Shown piece by piece: positions 2,680 to 63,855 of a stretch of DNA of 64,000 nucleotides. The stretch spans positions 983 to 64,982 of the forward strand of contig CANDFO010000003.1 in the NCBI GenBank assembly GCA_947384055.1, read 5' to 3'. The translations under genes and the position numbers were made by a program. Position 1 is the stretch's first letter; each line of letters begins with the position of its first letter. Under the pieces are notes generated by a model. It searched no databases, had not been told where the DNA came from, and saw only the letters and a program-made list of their open reading frames with translations. The stretch comes from an uncultured Flavonifractor sp. GTDB lineage: Bacteria > Bacillota > Clostridia > Oscillospirales > Oscillospiraceae.

Positions 2680-3588
2680 ATGGAACAGACAAAACGCATC
2701 ATCGCCCTGGGCTTTTTTGACGGGGTACACCTGGGTCACGGGGCCCTTTTACGGCGCGTCAGCCAGCTGGCCGCCCAGAGGTGGGCAATTCCGGCCGCCG
2801 TGACGTTTGACACCCACCCCGCCAATCTGATTCTGAAAGCCCCCATGCCTCTGCTGACTTCCCCCACCGACCGGGCAGACCTGATGATCCGGCACTACGG
2901 TATCCGGGAGGTTATCATCGCCCGCTTTGACCAGGCCATGATGCAGATGCCCTGGCAGGACTTTGTCACCGATTACCTGGTGAGGGAGCACGGGGCGGTT
3001 CACCTGGTGGTAGGCCACGACCACCACTTCGGCTATCGGGGAGAGGGCACCCCGGAAAAGCTGAAAGCTCTCTGCGGGGAGCTGGGTCTGGGCTGCGACA
3101 TCATCCCCAAGGTGGAGCGGGACCACATCACCATCTCCTCCACCTATATCCGCACGCTGGTGGCTCAGGGGGAGATGGAGCTGGCCAACGAATTCTTAGG
3201 GCACCCCCACACTCTCACCGACACAGTGGCCCACGGCAAGAAGCTGGGCAGCACCCTGGGCTTTCCCACGGTCAATCTGCGCTTTCAGCCGGGGGTGCTG
3301 GTGCCCGCCCACGGCGTTTACGCCACCAAGGTCTATTTTGAAAACGGGGACAGCCGCCCTGCCGTAACCAACATCGGGGTGCGCCCCACGGTAGACGACG
3401 GCAGCCGGGTGACGGTGGAGGGTTTTATTCTGGACTTTCACGGGGACCTGTACGGGCAGACCCTCCGCATGGAATTTTACAAGCGCCTGCGCCCGGAGGA
3501 AAAATTCCCGGATCTGGAGTCTCTGCGGGCGGAGGTCCTGCGCAACACCGAGCAGACCCGCGCCTATTTCCGAAACTTCTCCTCCTGA
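2680..3588 (+). CDS. ribF: Bifunctional riboflavin kinase / FAD synthetase
   Basis: 302 aa. The N-terminus has the FMN adenylyltransferase motif (ALGFFDGVHLGH) and the C-terminus the riboflavin kinase motif (GFPTVNL..GVYA..NIG.RPT). It follows truB as in most bacteria. Confidence 0.92.
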   Translation: MEQTKRIIALGFFDGVHLGHGALLRRVSQLAAQRWAIPAAVTFDTHPANLILKAPMPLLTSPTDRADLMIRHYGIREVIIARFDQAMMQMPWQDFVTDYLVREHGAVHLVVGHDHHFGYRGEGTPEKLKALCGELGLGCDIIPKVERDHITISSTYIRTLVAQGEMELANEFLGHPHTLTDTVAHGKKLGSTLGFPTVNLRFQPGVLVPAHGVYATKVYFENGDSRPAVTNIGVRPTVDDGSRVTVEGFILDFHGDLYGQTLRMEFYKRLRPEEKFPDLESLRAEVLRNTEQTRAYFRNFSS

Positions 3589-8237: not shown

Positions 8238-8303
8238 GTGCCGCTTCGCCCGTTACGGAGTAAGGGCGAAGCGCCGGGAAGCGGAAACAGAACAGCCCGG
8301 GGA
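8238..8303 (+). repeat. Intergenic repeat family B, left segment (copy 1)
   Basis: GTGCCGCTTCGCCCGTTACGGAGTAAGGGCGAAGCGCCGGGAAGCGGAAACAGAACAGCCCGGGGA matches 63689..63754 with about 4 mismatches. It contains the hairpin CGCTTCGCCC/GGGCGAAGCG. Confidence 0.75.
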
Positions 8304-8501
8304 CTGTCGAAAAACTTCCCCCACGGGAACGCTTCGCAGAGTTTTGCCGCCCGAGGGCGGCAAAATAAAGTCAAAATCGGTCATTTTCGGGGACATGTGC
8401 CTCGAAAATGACACATCTCGGCCTGCAAGTGTGCCCAAAGGGTGCGCGCAGCAGGCCGTATCCCTTTTGTCGAAAAAGGCCAGAGGCCTTTTTCGACAGG
8501 C
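8302..8501 (+). mobile_element. MITE-like 200 bp non-coding repeat, copy 1 (nested inside repeat B)
   Basis: It is the reverse complement of 33372..33571, with about 13 mismatches over 200 nt by manual alignment. The imperfect terminal inverted repeats are G(A/C)CTGTC(G/A)AAAAA ... TTTTTCGACAGGC. Internal hairpins are TTGCCGCCC-GAG-GGCGGCAA and CGAAAAAGGCC-AGA-GGCCTTTTTCG. No credible ORF. Confidence 0.75.
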
Positions 8502-8533
8502 CCCCTTCCCTGGTCGTTTGGGGAGGGTGGGTT

Positions 8534-8573
8534 GTCAGGGAGGGAGGGAAATCGAAATCCCTCCCTCCCTGAC
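8534..8573. repeat. 16 bp-stem purine/pyrimidine palindrome preceded by G-tracts
   Basis: GTCAGGGAGGGAGGGA-aatcgaaa-TCCCTCCCTCCCTGAC. Upstream GGGGAGGGTGGG adds further G-runs, giving G-quadruplex potential on the + strand. Confidence 0.7.
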
Positions 8574-8604
8574 CGGCTCTTTCGCCCCTTTCTGTCCACA
8601 CAGA

Positions 8605-8691
8605 AAGGGGGCCGCCGGAGGCTGGACAGCCAAATCTCAGCAGAGACCAACACGGGAAAAGTACCCGTCTCTCCAAACGGACAATGATTCA
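8605..8691 (+). repeat. Intergenic repeat family B, right segment (copy 1)
   Basis: AAGGGGGCCGCCGGAGGCTGGACAGCCAAATCTCAGCAGAGACCAACACGGGA... aligns with 63767..63855 at roughly three quarters identity by eye. Confidence 0.65.
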
Positions 8692-32794: not shown

Positions 32795-32881
32795 TCTCAG
32801 CGTCCGCCCCCCGCTTCTCTCACACGCTGTAATGCAAGACCGAGACAGGCTCATATGCGAACAGAAAGGATGGATTGCACC

Positions 32882-33331
32882 ATGTATGAACAGAAATCGA
32901 AATCTCCCGTCCGCGTTTTCCCTACTCTGCTGCTCTCCTTGTCCGTGTTTGCGGTGCTGTACCTCTCTGCGCACCGCCCGCTGGTCATTCTGTTTCACCA
33001 CGGGCACAGCGGCATTTTTGAGCTGATGCTGCTGCTCTCCAACATGCTTCTAGGGCTGGTGCTGGCGGCGGTGGTTAACTCTCTGCTGGAGGAAACCGCT
33101 TTTAAACCCTACGCTGTCTTTCTGGCGGCGCTCTTCGCCGTGGTATTTTGTCTGAGCGGCCTGCTGGTCCTCGCCGTCCCGTCCTTTTATCCCTCTGAGC
33201 CCCGCTGGTTTACCCTGCTCCTCACCTGTTTCCCGCAGTTTGTCGGGGTGGCGTTTACCGTTCCTGGCATAGCCGTCCATCTGATCGGTCTTTGCTGGCT
33301 GAATTGGAGACGGCGGGCCTCTGCCCGTTAG
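32882..33331 (+). CDS. Hypothetical small polytopic membrane protein
   Basis: About 149 aa from MYEQKSKSP with 4 hydrophobic helices. No family is recognised, and the start is uncertain (an alternative ATG lies at 32855). Confidence 0.45.
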   Translation: MYEQKSKSPVRVFPTLLLSLSVFAVLYLSAHRPLVILFHHGHSGIFELMLLLSNMLLGLVLAAVVNSLLEETAFKPYAVFLAALFAVVFCLSGLLVLAVPSFYPSEPRWFTLLLTCFPQFVGVAFTVPGIAVHLIGLCWLNWRRRASAR

Positions 33332-33335
33332 ATAA

Positions 33336-33369
33336 AAAGACCAGGCGCGCCACATGGCGCGCCTGGTCT
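33336..33369. terminator. Terminator hairpin, left copy of a perfect 34 bp direct duplication
   Basis: AAAGACCAGGCGCGCC-acat-GGCGCGCCTGGTCT (14 bp perfect stem) lies directly after the stop of the 32882..33331 gene and is identical to 33574..33607. Confidence 0.7.
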
Positions 33370-33371
33370 CA

Positions 33372-33571
33372 GCCTGTCGAAAAAGGCCGGTGGCCTTTTT
33401 CGACAAAAGGGATACGGCCTGCCGCGCGCACCCTTTGGGCACACTTGCAGACCGAGATGTGTCATTTCCGAGGCACATGTCCCCGAAAATGACTATTTTT
33501 CACTTTATTTTGCCGCCTTCGGGCGGCAAAACTCTACGAGGCGTTCCCGTGGGGGAAGTTTTTTGACAGTC
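33372..33571 (-). mobile_element. MITE-like 200 bp non-coding repeat, copy 2
   Basis: It is the reverse complement of 8302..8501 (about 13 mismatches). The ends are CAGCCTGTCGAAAAA / TTTTTTGACAGTCTG, a 15 bp TIR matching at 13 of 15 positions. It is bracketed by the duplicated hairpin. Confidence 0.75.
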
Positions 33572-33573
33572 TG

Positions 33574-33614
33574 AAAGACCAGGCGCGCCACATGGCGCGC
33601 CTGGTCTTTTTTTG
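33574..33614. terminator. Terminator hairpin, right copy of the 34 bp duplication, with T7 tail
   Basis: The same 34 nt as 33336..33369, followed by TTTTTTT. It lies 50 nt beyond the ileS stop on the opposite strand. Confidence 0.7.
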
Positions 33615-33663: not shown

Positions 33664-36465
33664 TCACATCTTCTTCACCACTGCGGCACAGCGGGGGCAC
33701 AGCTCCGGGTGGTCCTGGTCCTCGCCCACATGCTCGTTGTGGTTCCAGCACCGGACGCACTTGGGGGCCTCAGACAGCTTGACGGCGATGGTGCAGGGAA
33801 TCAGACATTCGCTGTTCTCCTCCCCGTCCAGGGCGCCCTCGGCAATCCGGACCTTGGATACAATGCACAGGGCCGCCAGATCCATATGCTCCAACAGGGC
33901 AGCGTCGTCAGGATTCTGAACAGCAATGGTCACTTCGGTATCCTGCGCCTTCTTGAACACCCCGGCGTTCCGGGCGTTTTCCAGCGCCTTGTTGACTGCG
34001 TCCCGCAGGGAGACCAGTTTTTCCCACCGCTCCTTGTCTGTCCCGGTCAGCTCCAGGGCCTCCTCATAGACGGGCATATCGTTGAGCAGAACACTCCTGG
34101 CGTCAGCGTCTTTGCCGTGAGGCATAGCATGCCAGATCTCATCGCTGGTGAACGCCAAAATGGGGGCGATCAGCTTGGTCATGCCGTCCAAAATGGTGTA
34201 TAGAGCGGTCTGCGCGGAGCGGCGGGAGGCAGTATCAGCGCAGTAGAGCCGGTCCTTAATGATATCCAGGTAGAAGTTGGACATCTCCACTACGCAGAAG
34301 TTATACACCGCCCGGTAAACGCCGTGGAACTCATAGCGCCCGTAGGCCTCCTGCGCTGTCCGGGTCAGTTCGTTGAAGCAGTGCAGAGCGTAGCGGTCCA
34401 GCTCCATCAGGTCCTTCCAGTCCACCCGCTCGGTGTTTGGGTCGAAGTCCGCCAGATTGCCCAGCATATACTTGGCGGTATTGCGGATTTTCAGATATGC
34501 CTGGCTGAGCTGCTTCATAATATTCTCAGAAATACGCATATCCTGAGTATAATCAGCACTTGCTACCCAAAGCCGGAGCAGGTCCGCGCCGTAATCCTTG
34601 ATAATCTCCTCCGGGCCGATGGCGTTGCCCAGGCTCTTGTGCATGGCTCTGCCCTCGCCGTCTACCGTCCAGCCGTGGGTAATAATCTGCTTATAGGGAG
34701 CTGTACCCTTGACGGCGATGGAGGTAAGCATGGAGGATTGGAACCAGCCCCGATACTGGTCGCCGCCCTCCAGGTATACATCGGCGGGGAAGCTGAGATA
34801 ATCTCTCTCATCCAGCACGGCGGCATGGGTGGAGCCCGAGTCAAACCACACGTCCATAATATCCGATTCCTTGGTAAAATGGGTGTGTCCGCATACCGGG
34901 CATACCAGTCCTTCCGGAACCAGCTCGTCGGCGGTCTTGTCAAACCAGATATTGGAGCCATGCTCCCGGAAGAGGGCAGCTGTACGCGCAATCGTCTCGG
35001 GCGTTACAATGTCCTTGCCGCATTCGGCGCAGTAGAAGATCGGGATGGGCACGCCCCACACCCGCTGACGGGAGATACACCAGTCGTTGCGCTCACTGAT
35101 CATGGAGGTCATGCGCTCCTTGCCCCAGGCGGGATGCCATTGGATCTTATCGCAGGCGTCTACAGCGGCCTTTTTGATGGCGTCCACCGAGCAGAACCAC
35201 TGCTCGGTTGCCCGGTAGATAATGGGCTGCTTGCAGCGCCAGCAGTGGGGGTACGAGTGAGTGATCTTCTCGCTGGCCAACAGCGCTCCCGCCGCCTCCA
35301 GGTCGCCGGGAATGGCTTCGTTGGCCTCGGCATAGTAGCGCCCGTTGTATTTGTCGTCTGTCATGACGCCCTTGGCGTTGACGGGCACCGGAGTACCGAT
35401 GTGGGTGAGGCCCGCGTCGTCGTACTGCTTGCAGATGTTGAAGTCGTCGGCGCCGAAGCCGGGGGCGGTGTGGACGCAGCCGGTGCCGGCTTCCAGGGTG
35501 ACATGCTCTCCGCACAGCAGGACAGAGTCCCGGTCAAAGAAGGGGTGCCTGGCGGTCATGAGCTCAAATTCTTCGCCCTTGAGGGTGGCCAGCACCTTGG
35601 AAGCGGTGTAGTCGATGCCCGCCTCTCTGCACACGCCTTCAGCCAGCGCCTGGGCCATGATATAAACCTCGCCGCCGGGGACCTGGAGAAGCACATAGTC
35701 CAGCTCGCCATTGACACAGATGGCCATATTCCCGGGGATCGTCCAGGGGGTGGTAGTCCAGATTACAAAATATGTTTTACTCAAATCGGCGTATTGGCTC
35801 AGCTTACCCTTATCGTCCCGGACCGGGAATTTTACAAAAATGGTGGTGCAGGGGTCGTCCTGATATTCAATTTCGGCTTCCGCCAGGGCGGTCTGGTCGT
35901 GGGGACACCAGTAGACCGGCTTCATCCCCTTATAGATGAAGCCCTGTTCGGCCATCTTTCCAAAGACCTCAATCTGCCTGGCCTCAAAGTCCGGGGTGAG
36001 GGTCAGATAAGGGCGCTCCCACTCGCCCAGCACACCCAGCCGCTTGAAGCCCTCCCGCTGCTTATCCACAAATTCCAGGGCGTACTCCTTGCACTTCTCC
36101 CGGAACTCGCTGATGGTCAGCTCATCCCGCTTGACCTTTTTGCTTTTCAGAATGGCGGATTCAATGGGCAGGCCATGAGTGTCCCAGCCCGGTACATAGG
36201 GGGCATAAAAACCGTTCATATTCCGGTGCTTGACAATCATGTCCTTTAAAATTTTATTCAGCGCCGTGCCGATATGGATGTTTCCGTTGGCATAGGGCGG
36301 TCCGTCATGGAGCACAAAGGAAGGCTTCCCCTCATTGCGGGAGACCATCGCGTGATACAGATCCTGGTCATACATGGCCCGGAGCATATCCGGCTCCCGC
36401 TGGGGGAGCTTCCCCCGCATGGGAAAATCCGTCTTGGGAAGGTGTACGGTCTGATTGTAATCCAT
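33664..36465 (-). CDS. ileS: Isoleucine--tRNA ligase (type 1, with C-terminal zinc finger)
   Basis: 933 aa with HIGH (PYANGNIHIGTALNK), KMSKS (AMHKSLGN), the CP1 editing domain and the C-terminal CVRCWNH..CPRC motif. AGGAGG lies 9 nt upstream of the ATG. Confidence 0.96.
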   Translation of the reverse strand: MDYNQTVHLPKTDFPMRGKLPQREPDMLRAMYDQDLYHAMVSRNEGKPSFVLHDGPPYANGNIHIGTALNKILKDMIVKHRNMNGFYAPYVPGWDTHGLPIESAILKSKKVKRDELTISEFREKCKEYALEFVDKQREGFKRLGVLGEWERPYLTLTPDFEARQIEVFGKMAEQGFIYKGMKPVYWCPHDQTALAEAEIEYQDDPCTTIFVKFPVRDDKGKLSQYADLSKTYFVIWTTTPWTIPGNMAICVNGELDYVLLQVPGGEVYIMAQALAEGVCREAGIDYTASKVLATLKGEEFELMTARHPFFDRDSVLLCGEHVTLEAGTGCVHTAPGFGADDFNICKQYDDAGLTHIGTPVPVNAKGVMTDDKYNGRYYAEANEAIPGDLEAAGALLASEKITHSYPHCWRCKQPIIYRATEQWFCSVDAIKKAAVDACDKIQWHPAWGKERMTSMISERNDWCISRQRVWGVPIPIFYCAECGKDIVTPETIARTAALFREHGSNIWFDKTADELVPEGLVCPVCGHTHFTKESDIMDVWFDSGSTHAAVLDERDYLSFPADVYLEGGDQYRGWFQSSMLTSIAVKGTAPYKQIITHGWTVDGEGRAMHKSLGNAIGPEEIIKDYGADLLRLWVASADYTQDMRISENIMKQLSQAYLKIRNTAKYMLGNLADFDPNTERVDWKDLMELDRYALHCFNELTRTAQEAYGRYEFHGVYRAVYNFCVVEMSNFYLDIIKDRLYCADTASRRSAQTALYTILDGMTKLIAPILAFTSDEIWHAMPHGKDADARSVLLNDMPVYEEALELTGTDKERWEKLVSLRDAVNKALENARNAGVFKKAQDTEVTIAVQNPDDAALLEHMDLAALCIVSKVRIAEGALDGEENSECLIPCTIAVKLSEAPKCVRCWNHNEHVGEDQDHPELCPRCAAVVKKM

Positions 36466-36549: not shown

Positions 36550-37554
36550 CTATGTTGTATTGATAATACAGTTAAAGTCTTTTATCGCTGCGTCTATACT
36601 ATATTGAAAAACATACTCGGGGGGATATTCCGGCAGTGCTATCTGCCCCAGCCGTACCCCCTTCGGTTTTCTGCCATAAGAAAATTTGTAACGGTTATTG
36701 GTAATGCACTGCGCATAAAACAGTTTTTCCTGTAGTCCCATCTTTCTTTTCGGTATTAAAACCGATATATCGCTGTTGGGAACAAATTCAAAAATTGAAA
36801 CGTAGGAAAATGTATGGCTCCCCTGTCCATTGGTCGATACATATAATGTTTCCGCCGGAAATATTTTTTCTTGTGGAACGGCCTTTTTATTTACATAAGC
36901 AGCTACACTGGTCTCCTGCCGGTAAGATGGCCTGACAAAGGGAATCCAATTCTCGTTTTCCTTTTCTTTCCTTCGCATGACTTGGGAGGACGCAATCCCA
37001 TTTTTTATGATAAACAAATTTTTTAACGGTAATAGCGCACTCTTTTCTGCGCATCTCCCGTCAGCCGTTGGAACGGCAAGCTGTCCAATCAAGTCTTTCC
37101 CATATTCTTTTAACGAAAAATTTCTTACATACTGCGGAATATACTCAATTTTGGGCACTTCCAAATAAGCCAGTGTAGCGTTTGCCTGCCTTCCATAGTT
37201 GTATTTGTATTGATTCTCTCTGATACATTGGCAATAGTATAGCTTAACAGCGCTGCTCATTTCGATGCGCGGCGTTAAAACCATCACATGAAAGCCCGTA
37301 TAGAAGGGACTGGGCTGTAAAAATGTCTCAAGCACGCTCCCACTCACTGCAACCGTAATCAGTCCCGCCGGAAACGGCTGTACCAAAGCCAACCGCTCAA
37401 CTTTTGACGACACACCGTTCCTCTTTGCCGTTCTGGAGACAAAATTAATTCCGTCCGCTTTTTTTTTCAAATAAATTAATTCCAGTGAATTTCCGTATTG
37501 TATGTGGAACAGCTGACTCAGTTTACAGGTCGTTTTCGTCTTTGTCTTCACCAT
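36550..37554 (-). CDS. Putative specificity (S) subunit of a BcgI-like type IIB R-M system, with two tandem TRD-like halves
   Basis: 334 aa in low-GC DNA. Two internally homologous halves each start with an HsdS-like L..LF.I..G motif and end with Y(Y/A)QCI..N.YK(Y/F).YGR....L..(L/I).(V/L)P. It overlaps the upstream RM gene by 32 nt. The functional call is an inference from architecture. Confidence 0.55.
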   Translation of the reverse strand: MVKTKTKTTCKLSQLFHIQYGNSLELIYLKKKADGINFVSRTAKRNGVSSKVERLALVQPFPAGLITVAVSGSVLETFLQPSPFYTGFHVMVLTPRIEMSSAVKLYYCQCIRENQYKYNYGRQANATLAYLEVPKIEYIPQYVRNFSLKEYGKDLIGQLAVPTADGRCAEKSALLPLKNLFIIKNGIASSQVMRRKEKENENWIPFVRPSYRQETSVAAYVNKKAVPQEKIFPAETLYVSTNGQGSHTFSYVSIFEFVPNSDISVLIPKRKMGLQEKLFYAQCITNNRYKFSYGRKPKGVRLGQIALPEYPPEYVFQYSIDAAIKDFNCIINTT

Positions 37555-39461: not shown

Positions 39462-39797
39462 AAAAAACAACGCCTCTGTCTCCCAAGAGACAAAGGCGCA
39501 ATTCCTCTGCGGTACCACTCTCGCTGTCCCGCCGGGGCGGGACCACTCTACGGCGGATAACGGCGCCGCCCGTCCCCACCTACGCCCCCACGAGAGGTTC
39601 AGCGGGCCGCTCCGAGGTGATTTTCCCCTTCCGGTCCCGTCCGCCTTTCACCATACGGCGGCTCTCTGCTCAGTCCCGGGGAAGGGTACTCCTCCTCATC
39701 CCAGCGTGTATGCTGCGGGAATCTGCGCCTCTCCGCGGAAACACGGAAAGGGCGGGCTCCCCTATGAAGTTCACGCACAGACGCGATGAAACAGCGT
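39462..39797 (-). promoter_or_regulatory. T-box riboswitch, isoleucine specifier (AUC)
   Basis: On the minus strand, stem I carries GATGA/AGTA, an AG bulge (GCAGAGAGCC) and a distal loop (GTATGGTGAAA). The specifier loop is GGGG-AAA-AUC-A-CCTC, with the codon at 39621-39619. The T-box core is AGAGTGGTACCGCA (39521-39508). The terminator is GCCTTTGTCTC-ttgg-GAGACAGAGGC followed by GTTGTTTTTT. Confidence 0.85.
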
Positions 39798-63688: not shown

Positions 63689-63855
63689 GTGCCGCTTCGC
63701 CCGTTACGGAGTAAGGGCAAAGCGCCGGGACGTGGAAACAGAACAGCCCGGGGATGGGTCCACGGGAAGGGGGTCCGCTGGAGGCATGACAAGCCAAATC
63801 TCAGCAGGAACCAACATGGGAGAAGCATCGACTTTCCCTCAACGGGAAAGAATCA
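63689..63855 (+). repeat. Intergenic repeat family B, compact copy 2
   Basis: Its left 66 nt match 8238..8303 and its right ~89 nt match 8605..8691. Only 12 nt (TGGGTCCACGGG) lie between them here, versus 301 nt in copy 1. Confidence 0.7.

What the first reader, a model, noticed from the sequence alone, without database searches (positions are those of the whole stretch)
33336..33614. MITE-like element flanked by a perfect 34 bp duplication of an entire terminator hairpin
Seen in sequence:
- AAAGACCAGGCGCGCCACATGGCGCGCCTGGTCT occurs twice in direct orientation, at 33336-33369 and 33574-33607, with zero mismatches.
- It is itself a 14 bp-stem hairpin.
- Its A-run lies on the outer left side and its T7 on the outer right side. 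This is what a single bidirectional terminator between the convergent membrane-protein gene and ileS would look like if it were split by an insertion.
- Between the two copies lie exactly 204 nt, consisting of the 200 bp repeat also found at 8302-8501, with ends CAGCCTGTCGAAAAA / TTTTTTGACAGTCTG.
- The hairpin is absent from the flanks of the other copy, so it is target sequence, not part of the element.

Inference:
- A 34 bp target duplication is far longer than the 2-14 bp produced by classical DDE transposition.
- It suggests a hairpin- or cruciform-directed insertion, a replication- or repair-mediated insertion with long target duplication, or template switching at a stalled terminator.
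Basis: partly seen in the sequence, partly recalled or inferred. Interest (0 to 1): 0.65.

Follow-up and report, generated by a model that had tools for sequence, protein, structure and literature searches.

The report
Terminator-hairpin-duplicating miniature transposon (IS1182 type)
A 204-bp gene-less mobile element landed on the shared terminator hairpin between a membrane-protein gene and ileS and copied the whole 34-bp hairpin to both of its sides; this is the regular habit of a roughly 150-copy family in this mouse-gut bacterium, and its ends match IS1182-family insertion sequences that do the same, so it is a clear example of a known kind.

Summary
The identical 34-nt hairpin AAAGACC..GGTCT lies at 33336-33369 and 33574-33607. 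Between the copies is a 204-bp element with inverted ends CAGCCTGTCGAAAAA / TTTTTTGACAGTCTG.

- **Family rule.** The genome holds 88 full-length and 61 partial copies. Of 87 copies with readable flanks, 54 are bracketed by an 18-41 nt duplication (median 31) of a different complete hairpin. Random controls gave 0 of 200.
- **Hairpin is target, not element.** The 34-mer occurs nowhere else in the genome.
- **Empty site.** Contigs of a ~97%-identical sister strain, from three mouse-gut runs of two studies, join 33335 directly to 33574 and so carry a single hairpin.
- **Transposase family.** Full-length ~1.57-kb elements in other gut Oscillospirales have the same tips. They encode an IS1182-family DDE transposase and show whole-hairpin duplications, including all six copies in one near-complete assembly.

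Best reading: a non-autonomous IS1182-type element whose 3' ends are joined at the 5' feet of an extruded hairpin or cruciform, so the hairpin sets the stagger. No partner transposase was found in this 81%-complete genome.

Hairpin targeting is published for IS1272/TnSha1 (IS1182 family), and hairpin duplication for IS1630 (IS30 family). I file this as a new member of a known kind, of moderate interest.

The parts
33336..33369 (.). Left copy of the duplicated target: a complete terminator hairpin (14-bp stem, ACAT loop). It keeps the upstream A run, which is the U-tract for ileS on the minus strand.
   Evidence: (D10). Present once in the empty-site contigs.
33370..33573 (+). 204-bp non-coding miniature transposon (MITE), 93% identical at most to any other copy in the genome.
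   Evidence: 88 full-length plus 61 partial copies. Consensus. No Rfam match at E<=0.05.
33370..33386 (+). Left terminal inverted repeat, CAGCCTGTCGAAAAAGG.
   Evidence: 16 of 17 nt identical to the left tip CAGTCTGTCGAAAAAGG of the full-length Pygmaiobacter IS1182-family elements; several other loci carry the exact first 16 nt CAGCCTGTCGAAAAAG.
33375..33405 (.). Subterminal hairpin in which the left inverted repeat pairs with an inner inverted copy of itself (TGTCGAAAAAGGCC-GGTG-GGCCTTTTTCGACA).
   Evidence: D13. Pairs kept in 98-100% of 84 copies, with a few compensatory changes. The full-length IS ends have the same layout.
33461..33493 (.). Internal conserved imperfect palindrome, GTCATTTCCGAGGCACATGTCCCCGAAAATGAC.
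   Evidence: minus-strand consensus fold.
33508..33531 (.). Internal conserved G+C hairpin, TTTTGCCGCC-TTCG-GGCGGCAAAA.
   Evidence: pairs at consensus positions 139-162, 98-100% kept.
33559..33573 (+). Right terminal inverted repeat, TTTTTTGACAGTCTG (family consensus GTTTTTCGACAGACTG).
   Evidence: The consensus is identical to the right tip of a clade of full-length IS1182-family elements (L042-L047, L052, L055, L056).
33574..33607 (.). Right copy of the duplicated hairpin. It keeps the downstream T7, which is the U-tract for the plus-strand membrane-protein gene.
32855..33331 (+). 158-aa hydrophobic ORF with no Pfam match. Its stop codon lies 4 nt before the left hairpin copy.
   Evidence: An orthologue sits at the same place in same-genus genome G001.
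33664..36465 (-). ileS (isoleucyl-tRNA synthetase), convergent with the gene above. Its stop codon lies 56 nt from the right hairpin copy.
   Evidence: tRNA-synt_1 5e-139, Anticodon_1, zf-FPG_IleRS.
8302..8501 (-). Second copy of the element in the window, in opposite orientation. Its tips are altered (GGG../..CCC) and it has no hairpin duplication.
   Evidence: (I1).

Best explanation
The 204-bp insert is a non-autonomous miniature transposon derived from, and presumably moved in trans by, an IS1182-family insertion sequence with a DDE transposase. This family selects DNA hairpins, in practice intrinsic terminators, by shape and not by sequence.

**Inferred mechanism**
- The palindrome is extruded as a cruciform, or the two strands fold separately.
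- The element's two 3'-OH ends are joined at the 5' foot of the hairpin on each strand.
- The stagger between the two joints therefore equals the hairpin length.
- Gap filling then leaves one complete hairpin on each side of the element.

**At this locus**
- The single bidirectional terminator shared by the membrane-protein gene and ileS was the target.
- After insertion, the hairpin nearer each gene has lost most of its U-tract. The farther hairpin keeps it.
- Both transcripts probably now run about 240 nt through the element and end at the far hairpin. Termination, and so neutrality of the insertion, is preserved.

**Shown versus inferred**
- Shown: the anatomy, the family-wide rule, the empty site, and identical tips and behaviour in transposase-bearing relatives.
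- Inferred: the cruciform, the 5'-foot joining chemistry, mobilisation in trans, and the transcript consequences.
For: - **Exact duplication.** A 34-nt duplication brackets a 204-bp element with terminal inverted repeats.
- **Copy number.** 88 full-length and 61 partial copies lie in 2.48 Mb.
- **Family-wide rule.** 54 of 87 copies carry an 18-41 nt flanking duplication (median 31). Each is a different sequence that folds as a hairpin, and 20 are perfect. Random controls gave 0 of 200.
- **Hairpins abut the element.** 84 of 87 copies have a hairpin touching at least one end.
- **Duplication ends sit at the stem base.** 29 of 48 have 0 unpaired nt at the 5' end of the duplication, and 29 of 48 at the 3' end.
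- **Terminator-like sites.** 81 of 87 sites adjoin the 3' end of an ORF of at least 120 aa, and 43 lie between convergent ORF ends (a crude ORF test).
- **Empty site.** Contigs from X8, X10 and X11 (two studies) carry one hairpin and differ from the window at about 3% of flank positions.
- **Assembler control.** In the same runs, contigs break at the hairpins of a filled locus. The skipping contig is therefore unlikely to be an assembly-graph artefact.
- **Transposase family.** The element in related genome G012 scores 407 bits on NF033551 (IS1182 family; cut-off 270). Its right tip is ..TTCTTCGACAGGCTG.
- **Widespread relatives.** 334 relatives of that transposase were found in gut Oscillospirales.
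- **Relatives behave the same.** Six 99%-identical copies in a Pygmaiobacter assembly have tips CAGTCTGTCGAAAAAGG / TTCGACAAGCTG, and each is flanked by a perfect whole-hairpin duplication. At least 15 further loci show the same.
- **Literature.** IS1272/TnSha1 of the IS1182 family target terminator hairpins irrespective of sequence (PMC4923244, PMC5678879). Model pathway b in PMC5678879 predicts whole stem-loop duplication when joining is at the 5' feet.
Against: - No IS1182-type transposase is present in this genome: PF13751, PF05598 and PF01609 searches and tblastn were all negative. The assembly is only 81% complete and multi-copy elements are often lost, so mobilisation in trans is unproven.
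- 31 of 87 copies have a hairpin on one side only, and 5 have unrelated hairpins on the two sides.
- 7 related pairs have the loop inverted between the two copies. Simple staggered joining plus fill-in does not predict this.
- The studied family members IS1272/TnSha1 delete the hairpin instead of duplicating it.
- No two copies are more than 96.6% identical, so a recent burst is not visible.
- The empty site could be a secondary precise excision through the 34-nt repeats, not the ancestral state.
Confidence: 0.8

Rival explanations
1. The duplication arises without a transposase, through a replication or repair event at a stalled terminator hairpin: template switching, or capture of a DNA fragment into a break with fill-in of long overhangs.
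For: - The duplication is long and variable in length.
- No transposase is found in this genome.
- Loop inversions in 7 pairs recall template switching within palindromes.
Against: - The inserted DNA is always the same element, with precise inverted tips and exact boundaries in about 90 copies.
- Transposase-bearing elements with the same tips give the same duplications.
- Random capture would not yield a defined family.
Confidence: 0.05
2. It is a MITE of another hairpin-duplicating transposon family, such as the IS30-type IS1630 of Mycoplasma fermentans, or of an integrase that measures out long duplications (Cas1 or casposase-like).
For: [quoted passage not shown] This is the title and summary as cited in PMC3317919 and PMC2853133.
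- From general knowledge, not tested here: Cas1-Cas2 duplicates partly palindromic repeats of about 30 bp.
Against: - Both tips match the tips of elements that encode an IS1182-family transposase (NF033551): 16 of 17 nt on the left for this copy, and 16 of 16 on the right for the family consensus.
- Duplication length follows each hairpin (18-41 nt) instead of a fixed ruler.
Confidence: 0.05
3. The insertion is real, but the two hairpins pre-existed as tandem terminators, or the hairpin travels with the element.
For: None found.
Against: - The sister strain has one hairpin and no element.
- Same-genus genomes G001 and G002 have a single hairpin downstream of ileS.
- The 34-mer occurs only here.
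- Flanking hairpins differ at every copy.
Confidence: 0.02
4. The mechanism is as in the best explanation, but the target is a hairpin on single-stranded DNA, for example the lagging-strand template, and not a cruciform in duplex DNA.
For: - Copies with a hairpin on one side only are common, 31 of 87. This could reflect events in which only one strand was folded.
- Structure-specific single-strand targeting exists in other transposon families (IS200/IS605; general knowledge, not tested here).
Against: - A symmetric duplication of the whole hairpin needs joints on both strands at mirror-image positions, which a four-way junction provides naturally.
- The element shows no strong orientation bias relative to the T-tract: 18 versus 13.
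Confidence: 0.15

Closest known systems
IS1272 and its composite TnSha1 (IS1182 family, staphylococci; PMC5678879, PMC4923244)
   Same: - Same transposase family as the full-length relatives of this element.
- The target is a stem-loop or terminator chosen by structure with no sequence consensus.
- Element ends can themselves fold as stem-loops.
- The published cruciform model includes a whole-hairpin-duplication branch (pathway b).
   Different: - IS1272/TnSha1 delete or replace the hairpin and leave no duplication. Here the whole hairpin is duplicated in most copies.
- This element carries no transposase and is present in about 150 copies.
Full-length IS1182-family elements of gut Oscillospirales (for example the six copies in Pygmaiobacter MAG CAXXMP01; loci L018-L023 and L095)
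   Same: - Tips CAGNCTGTCGAAAAAG... / ...TTCGACAGNCTG.
- A subterminal hairpin at the left end.
- Perfect whole-hairpin target duplications, for example 31, 28 and 36 bp in L018, L019 and L021.
   Different: - They are about 1.57 kb long and encode a ~466-aa DDE transposase.
- Their interior is unrelated to the MITE interior. BLAST of five such elements against this genome matches only their first ~50 nt.
IS1630 of Mycoplasma fermentans (IS30 family; Calcutt, Lavrrar & Wise 1999, as cited in PMC3317919 and PMC2853133)
   Same: [quoted passage not shown]
   Different: - It belongs to a different transposase family (IS30).
- It is autonomous and low in copy number.
- I could not read the original paper; it is not held.
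Classical bacterial MITEs (Correia, RUP, ERIC, Chunjie and others; review PMC10969869)
   Same: Small, gene-less, with terminal inverted repeats, intergenic, structured and high in copy number.
   Different: - Those described have short fixed duplications.
- The 2024 review mentions neither IS1182-derived MITEs nor whole-hairpin duplications.

Membership tests
MITE (non-autonomous DNA transposon) | Short (under 500 bp), no transposase gene, terminal inverted repeats. | tested here: met
   204 bp with tips CAGCCTGTCGAAAAA / TTTTTTGACAGTCTG (13 of 15 complementary). The only ORFs of at least 80 aa that overlap it run in from the flanks.
MITE (non-autonomous DNA transposon) | Many dispersed copies with target-site duplications, and empty sites. 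| tested here: met
   88 full-length and 61 partial copies. 54 long duplications. Empty site in a sister strain.
IS1182-family derivative | Tips match those of elements encoding an IS1182-family transposase (NCBIfam NF033551). | tested here: met
   Transposase scores 407 bits against a cut-off of 270. For this copy the left tip matches the Pygmaiobacter IS in 16 of 17 nt, and several other loci carry its first 16 nt exactly. On the right, the 16-nt match to full-length elements is for the family consensus.
IS1182-family derivative | A cognate transposase in the same genome that can act in trans. | tested here: not met
   No hit to PF13751, PF05598 or PF01609, and no tblastn hit at E<=1. The genome is 81% complete in 126 contigs, so absence is not established.
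IS1182-family derivative | Actual mobilisation by that transposase. | not testable with these tools
   Needs a transposition assay.
IS1272-type 'stem-loop-replacing' transposition | The target hairpin is deleted or replaced, with no target duplication. | tested here: not met
   The hairpin is duplicated at this locus and at 53 others. Only a minority of copies lack a hairpin on one side.
IS1630-like (IS30 family) | IS30-type transposase. | tested here: not met
   Full-length elements with these tips encode an IS1182-type enzyme.
Known structured RNA family (Rfam) | Match to a covariance model at or near its gathering score. | tested here: not met
   The best hits lie on the hairpins only, at E 0.07-0.7 and far below the gathering scores. 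The window-wide search returns only a T-box.

The most novel reading that the evidence does not exclude
This transposase clade is a truly structure-specific DDE integrase that reads an extruded cruciform as a four-way junction and joins the transposon at its 5' feet, much as a junction resolvase places its cuts. The target hairpin, not the enzyme, would then be the ruler for the duplication. The long palindromic duplications would also make insertions neutral, because terminators are preserved on the outer sides. They would make insertions reversible too, through precise excision across 20-40 nt repeats. That would explain how about 150 copies are tolerated in 2.5 Mb. The inverted loops and one-sided hairpins would be footprints of alternative processing of the folded single-stranded gaps.
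Probability: 0.45. Interest if true: 0.55.

Novelty: new member of a known kind. Interest (0 to 1): 0.4.

Why it matters
- **Rule at scale.** One genome gives 54 independent examples of a rule that the open literature I could search states only as a hypothetical branch of a model for IS1182 elements, and shows only for IS1630. The rule is that the duplicated target is the entire hairpin, whatever its length or sequence.
- **Annotation.** Genome annotators should expect 'doubled terminators' around small repeats in gut Clostridia.
- **Assembly.** The repeats break short-read assemblies. Many contigs of this genome end inside the element.
- **Gene expression.** Each insertion probably adds a structured 3' extension of about 240 nt to neighbouring genes. 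Between convergent genes the two extensions would overlap in antisense.
- **Tool potential.** An enzyme that integrates at any cruciform could serve as a probe of DNA structure in vivo.

Tried and rejected
- **Rfam.** The E-value search of the locus and the gathering search of the window found no RNA family for the element.
- **Autonomous partner in the genome.** A scan for extra tip motifs found only solo hairpins and fragments. Pfam searches and tblastn found nothing.
- **Orthologous site in same-genus genomes G001 and G002.**
  - Each has a single but unrelated hairpin downstream of ileS.
  - The intergenic DNA is too diverged for a clean empty site.
  - G001 carries a possible relic of the element's right end (atttcttcgacagccc) next to its hairpin.
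- **Raw-read run X23.** No reads laid on the locus.
- **RNA runs.**
  - Only low-depth contigs of uncertain RNA or DNA origin were found.
  - They confirm both filled-site junctions in rat-gut samples.
  - They cannot show read-through.
- **Second locus for polymorphism (C13:41022).** Contigs break at the hairpins and no empty allele is seen.
- **Literature.**
  - I found no open paper that documents whole-hairpin duplication by IS1182-family members or IS1182-derived MITEs.
  - The original IS1630 paper is not held.
  - My recollection that ISfinder lists direct repeats of 0-60 bp for the IS1182 family could not be verified here.
- **Covariation in the element's internal hairpins.** Pairs are kept in 92-100% of copies, but too few vary to argue for or against a selected RNA or DNA structure.

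Full report
**1. Observation**

- The 34-mer AAAGACCAGGCGCGCCACATGGCGCGCCTGGTCT stands at 33336-33369 and again at 33574-33607 without a mismatch (family D10).
- The neighbouring bases differ on both sides, so the repeat is exactly 34 nt and the insert exactly 204 nt (33370-33573).
- The 34-mer folds as a 14-bp stem with a 4-nt loop, dG -31.5 kcal/mol.
- An A run precedes the left copy and T7 follows the right copy.
- The 204 nt are 94% complementary to 8302-8501 (pair I1).
- The locus lies between the 3' ends of a 158-aa hydrophobic ORF (32855-33331, +) and ileS (33664-36465, -).

**2. The duplication is the family's rule**

- The window's whole genome is 2.48 Mb in 126 contigs and 81% complete. 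It holds 88 full-length and 61 partial copies of the element. Many contigs end inside one.
- The 34-mer hairpin occurs only at this locus.
- I lined up the flanks of the 87 full-length copies that have readable flanks.
  - 54 carry a flanking direct duplication of 18-41 nt, median 31 nt. Each has a different sequence and folds as a complete hairpin. Twenty are perfect.
  - The same procedure at 200 random positions gave none; the longest chance repeat was 12 nt.
  - 84 of 87 copies have a hairpin abutting at least one end: 53 at both ends, 16 at the left only, 15 at the right only.
- In 48 well-preserved pairs the duplication usually ends at the outermost base pair of the stem. There are 0 unpaired nt in 29 of 48 at the 5' end, and in 29 of 48 at the 3' end.
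- Sites are terminator-like. 81 of 87 adjoin the 3' end of an ORF of at least 120 aa, and 43 lie between convergent ORF ends. This is a crude ORF test in a G+C-rich genome.
- T-tracts or A-tracts flank many of the sites, with no strong orientation bias of the element: 18 versus 13.

**3. Empty site**

- The organism lives in mouse and rat guts.
- In three runs from two studies (X8, X10, X11), contigs of a sister strain join 33335 directly to 33574. They skip 238 nt, and 34 nt fit either side. The sister strain shows, for example, 6 differences in 186 nt of the left flank.
- That is the predicted empty site, with one hairpin.
- In runs carrying the window's own strain (X1, X4), contigs break at the two hairpins.
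- As a control for an assembly-graph artefact, I laid the same three runs on another filled locus (C13:41022). Contigs break at its hairpins and none skips.
- Same-genus genomes G001 and G002 have one hairpin downstream of ileS, of unrelated sequence.
- The empty allele could be ancestral. It could also be a precise excision across the 34-nt repeats. Both readings confirm that the filled and empty states differ by the element plus one hairpin copy.

**4. What moves it**

- The genome has no detectable IS1182-, IS5- or IS4-type transposase.
- A related genus (G012) carries an element whose ORF scores 407 bits on NCBIfam NF033551, the IS1182 family model with a cut-off of 270. Its right end reads ..GGGTTCTTCGACAGGCTG, followed directly by a terminator hairpin.
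- A scan of one genome per species found 334 relatives of this transposase in gut Oscillospirales and other gut taxa.
- A Pygmaiobacter assembly (the copies lie on contigs of 2.56 and 0.93 Mb) has six copies that are 99% identical.
  - All have tips CAGTCTGTCGAAAAAGG... / ...GGGTTCTTCGACAAGCTG.
  - All are flanked by a perfect duplication of a different whole hairpin.
- At least 15 further loci from other genomes show the same. These include mouse-gut assemblies L053 and L060.
- The MITE's tips agree with these.
  - Family consensus: GAGCCTGTCGAAAAAGG... / ...GTTTTTCGACAGACTG.
  - Left tip: this copy's CAGCCTGTCGAAAAAGG matches the Pygmaiobacter tip in 16 of 17 nt. Several other loci carry its first 16 nt exactly.
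  - Right tip: the family consensus matches one clade of full-length elements in 16 of 16 nt.
- The interiors are unrelated.
- I therefore read the MITE as a non-autonomous IS1182-type element. Hairpin duplication is a property of that transposase clade.

**5. Mechanism**

Published work on IS1272 and TnSha1 (IS1182 family) shows insertion into terminator hairpins of any sequence, but with loss of the hairpin and no duplication (PMC4923244; PMC5678879). The latter paper's model has the element's 3' ends attack a cruciform. Attack at the 3' feet removes the hairpin. Attack at the 5' feet (its pathway b) would duplicate the whole stem-loop.

The data here fit pathway b.
- Duplication length equals hairpin length over an 18-41 nt range.
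- The duplication boundaries sit at the stem base.
- There is no sequence consensus among targets.

The joining chemistry is inferred, not shown.

At this locus each gene's near hairpin has lost most of its U-tract: GGTCT|CAGCC for the plus-strand gene and GGTCTTT|CAGAC for ileS. The far copies keep T7 and T5. Transcripts probably read through the element and stop at the far hairpin. This is inference. The RNA data were too thin to test it.

**6. What the simple model does not explain**

- **Inverted loops.** Seven of about 48 related hairpin pairs have the loop inverted between the left and right copy. All 21 matched duplications of full-length elements are direct. Later loop flipping within palindromes seems the likelier cause, but a hairpin-capped intermediate is not excluded.
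- **One-sided hairpins.** 31 copies have a hairpin on one side only, split 16 to 15. Three causes are possible:
  - The nick opposite a folded single-stranded gap is sealed, and replication then segregates the two strands.
  - One hairpin copy is deleted later.
  - The assembly is chimeric.
- **Mismatched flanks.** Many full-length elements in short-read assemblies have different hairpins at their two ends. None of the six in the contiguous Pygmaiobacter assembly do. This points to chimeric assembly through repeats.
- **No recent burst.**
  - No two MITE copies exceed 96.6% identity, and the median divergence from consensus is 6.6%.
  - The paired duplications differ by 4.7%.
  - This fits an old family that still moves conservatively, or hairpins held by selection.

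**7. Comparison and novelty**

- The element is a MITE by every testable criterion, and an IS1182-family derivative by its tips. A cognate transposase in the same genome was sought and not found.
- It is not an IS1272-type 'replacing' insertion, and not an IS30-type element like IS1630. [quoted passage not shown]
- A 2024 review of prokaryotic MITEs mentions neither IS1182-derived MITEs nor hairpin duplications.
- Earlier notes of this scan report the same kind of element in many other genomes. I treated them as leads. Here I re-derived the IS1182 link and the IS1630 citation independently.
- Verdict: real, well supported, a new and very abundant member of a known kind. Interest is moderate. 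The most valuable open point is the untested structure-specific integration chemistry.

Noticed in passing
window 8238-8661 versus 63689-63825: The other copy of the element (8302-8501) sits, together with a G-rich perfect palindrome (about 8546-8585, GTCAGGGAGGGAGGGAAATCGAAATCCCTCCCTCCCTGAC), inside a second repeat. That repeat is uninterrupted at 63689-63825, 95% and 88% identical in its two parts. This copy has altered tips (GGG../..CCC) and no hairpin duplication. The host repeat has no Rfam match.
   Followed up: partly
genome copies C8:21510, C2:28743, C40:10795, C60:13056, C50:3434, C44:19302 (contig coordinates): The two flanking hairpin copies have identical stems, but the loop of one is the reverse complement of the other (for example GAAG versus CTTC).
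   Followed up: partly
L003 964-2877 (-), genome G012: The IS1182-family transposase reading frame has no stop codon inside the element. It runs through the right inverted repeat into flanking DNA, giving a 637-aa ORF against about 466 aa of homology. PMC5678879 states the same for the TnSha1 transposase. About 200 bp upstream of the gene there is a second left-end-like hairpin, TTTGTCGAAAAACATGGTTTTTCGACAA (L003 about 3119-3146).
   Followed up: no
L001 about 2190-2215 (same-genus genome G001, downstream of ileS): Next to the single terminator hairpin lies atttcttcgacagccc, which resembles the element's right tip. It may be a relic of an old insertion at the orthologous site.
   Followed up: no
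genome: C7:45771-45801, C8:4260-4292, C18:30313-30345, C25:10371-10401, C43:17669-17699: The element's 31-nt left-end hairpin (TGTCGAAAAAGG..CCTTTTTCGACA) also occurs alone, away from any full element.
   Followed up: no
window 39483-39711 (-): A T-box leader (Rfam RF00230, 100.9 bits) lies about 3 kb upstream of ileS. Genes with restriction-modification domains lie in between (Methylase_S at 36550-37554).
   Followed up: no
relatives G026, G012, G029, G007: Other genera of the same family carry many repeats that match only modules of the element: nt 1-43 in G026 and nt 84-176 in G012, G029 and G007. This suggests a modular family of related MITEs.
   Followed up: no
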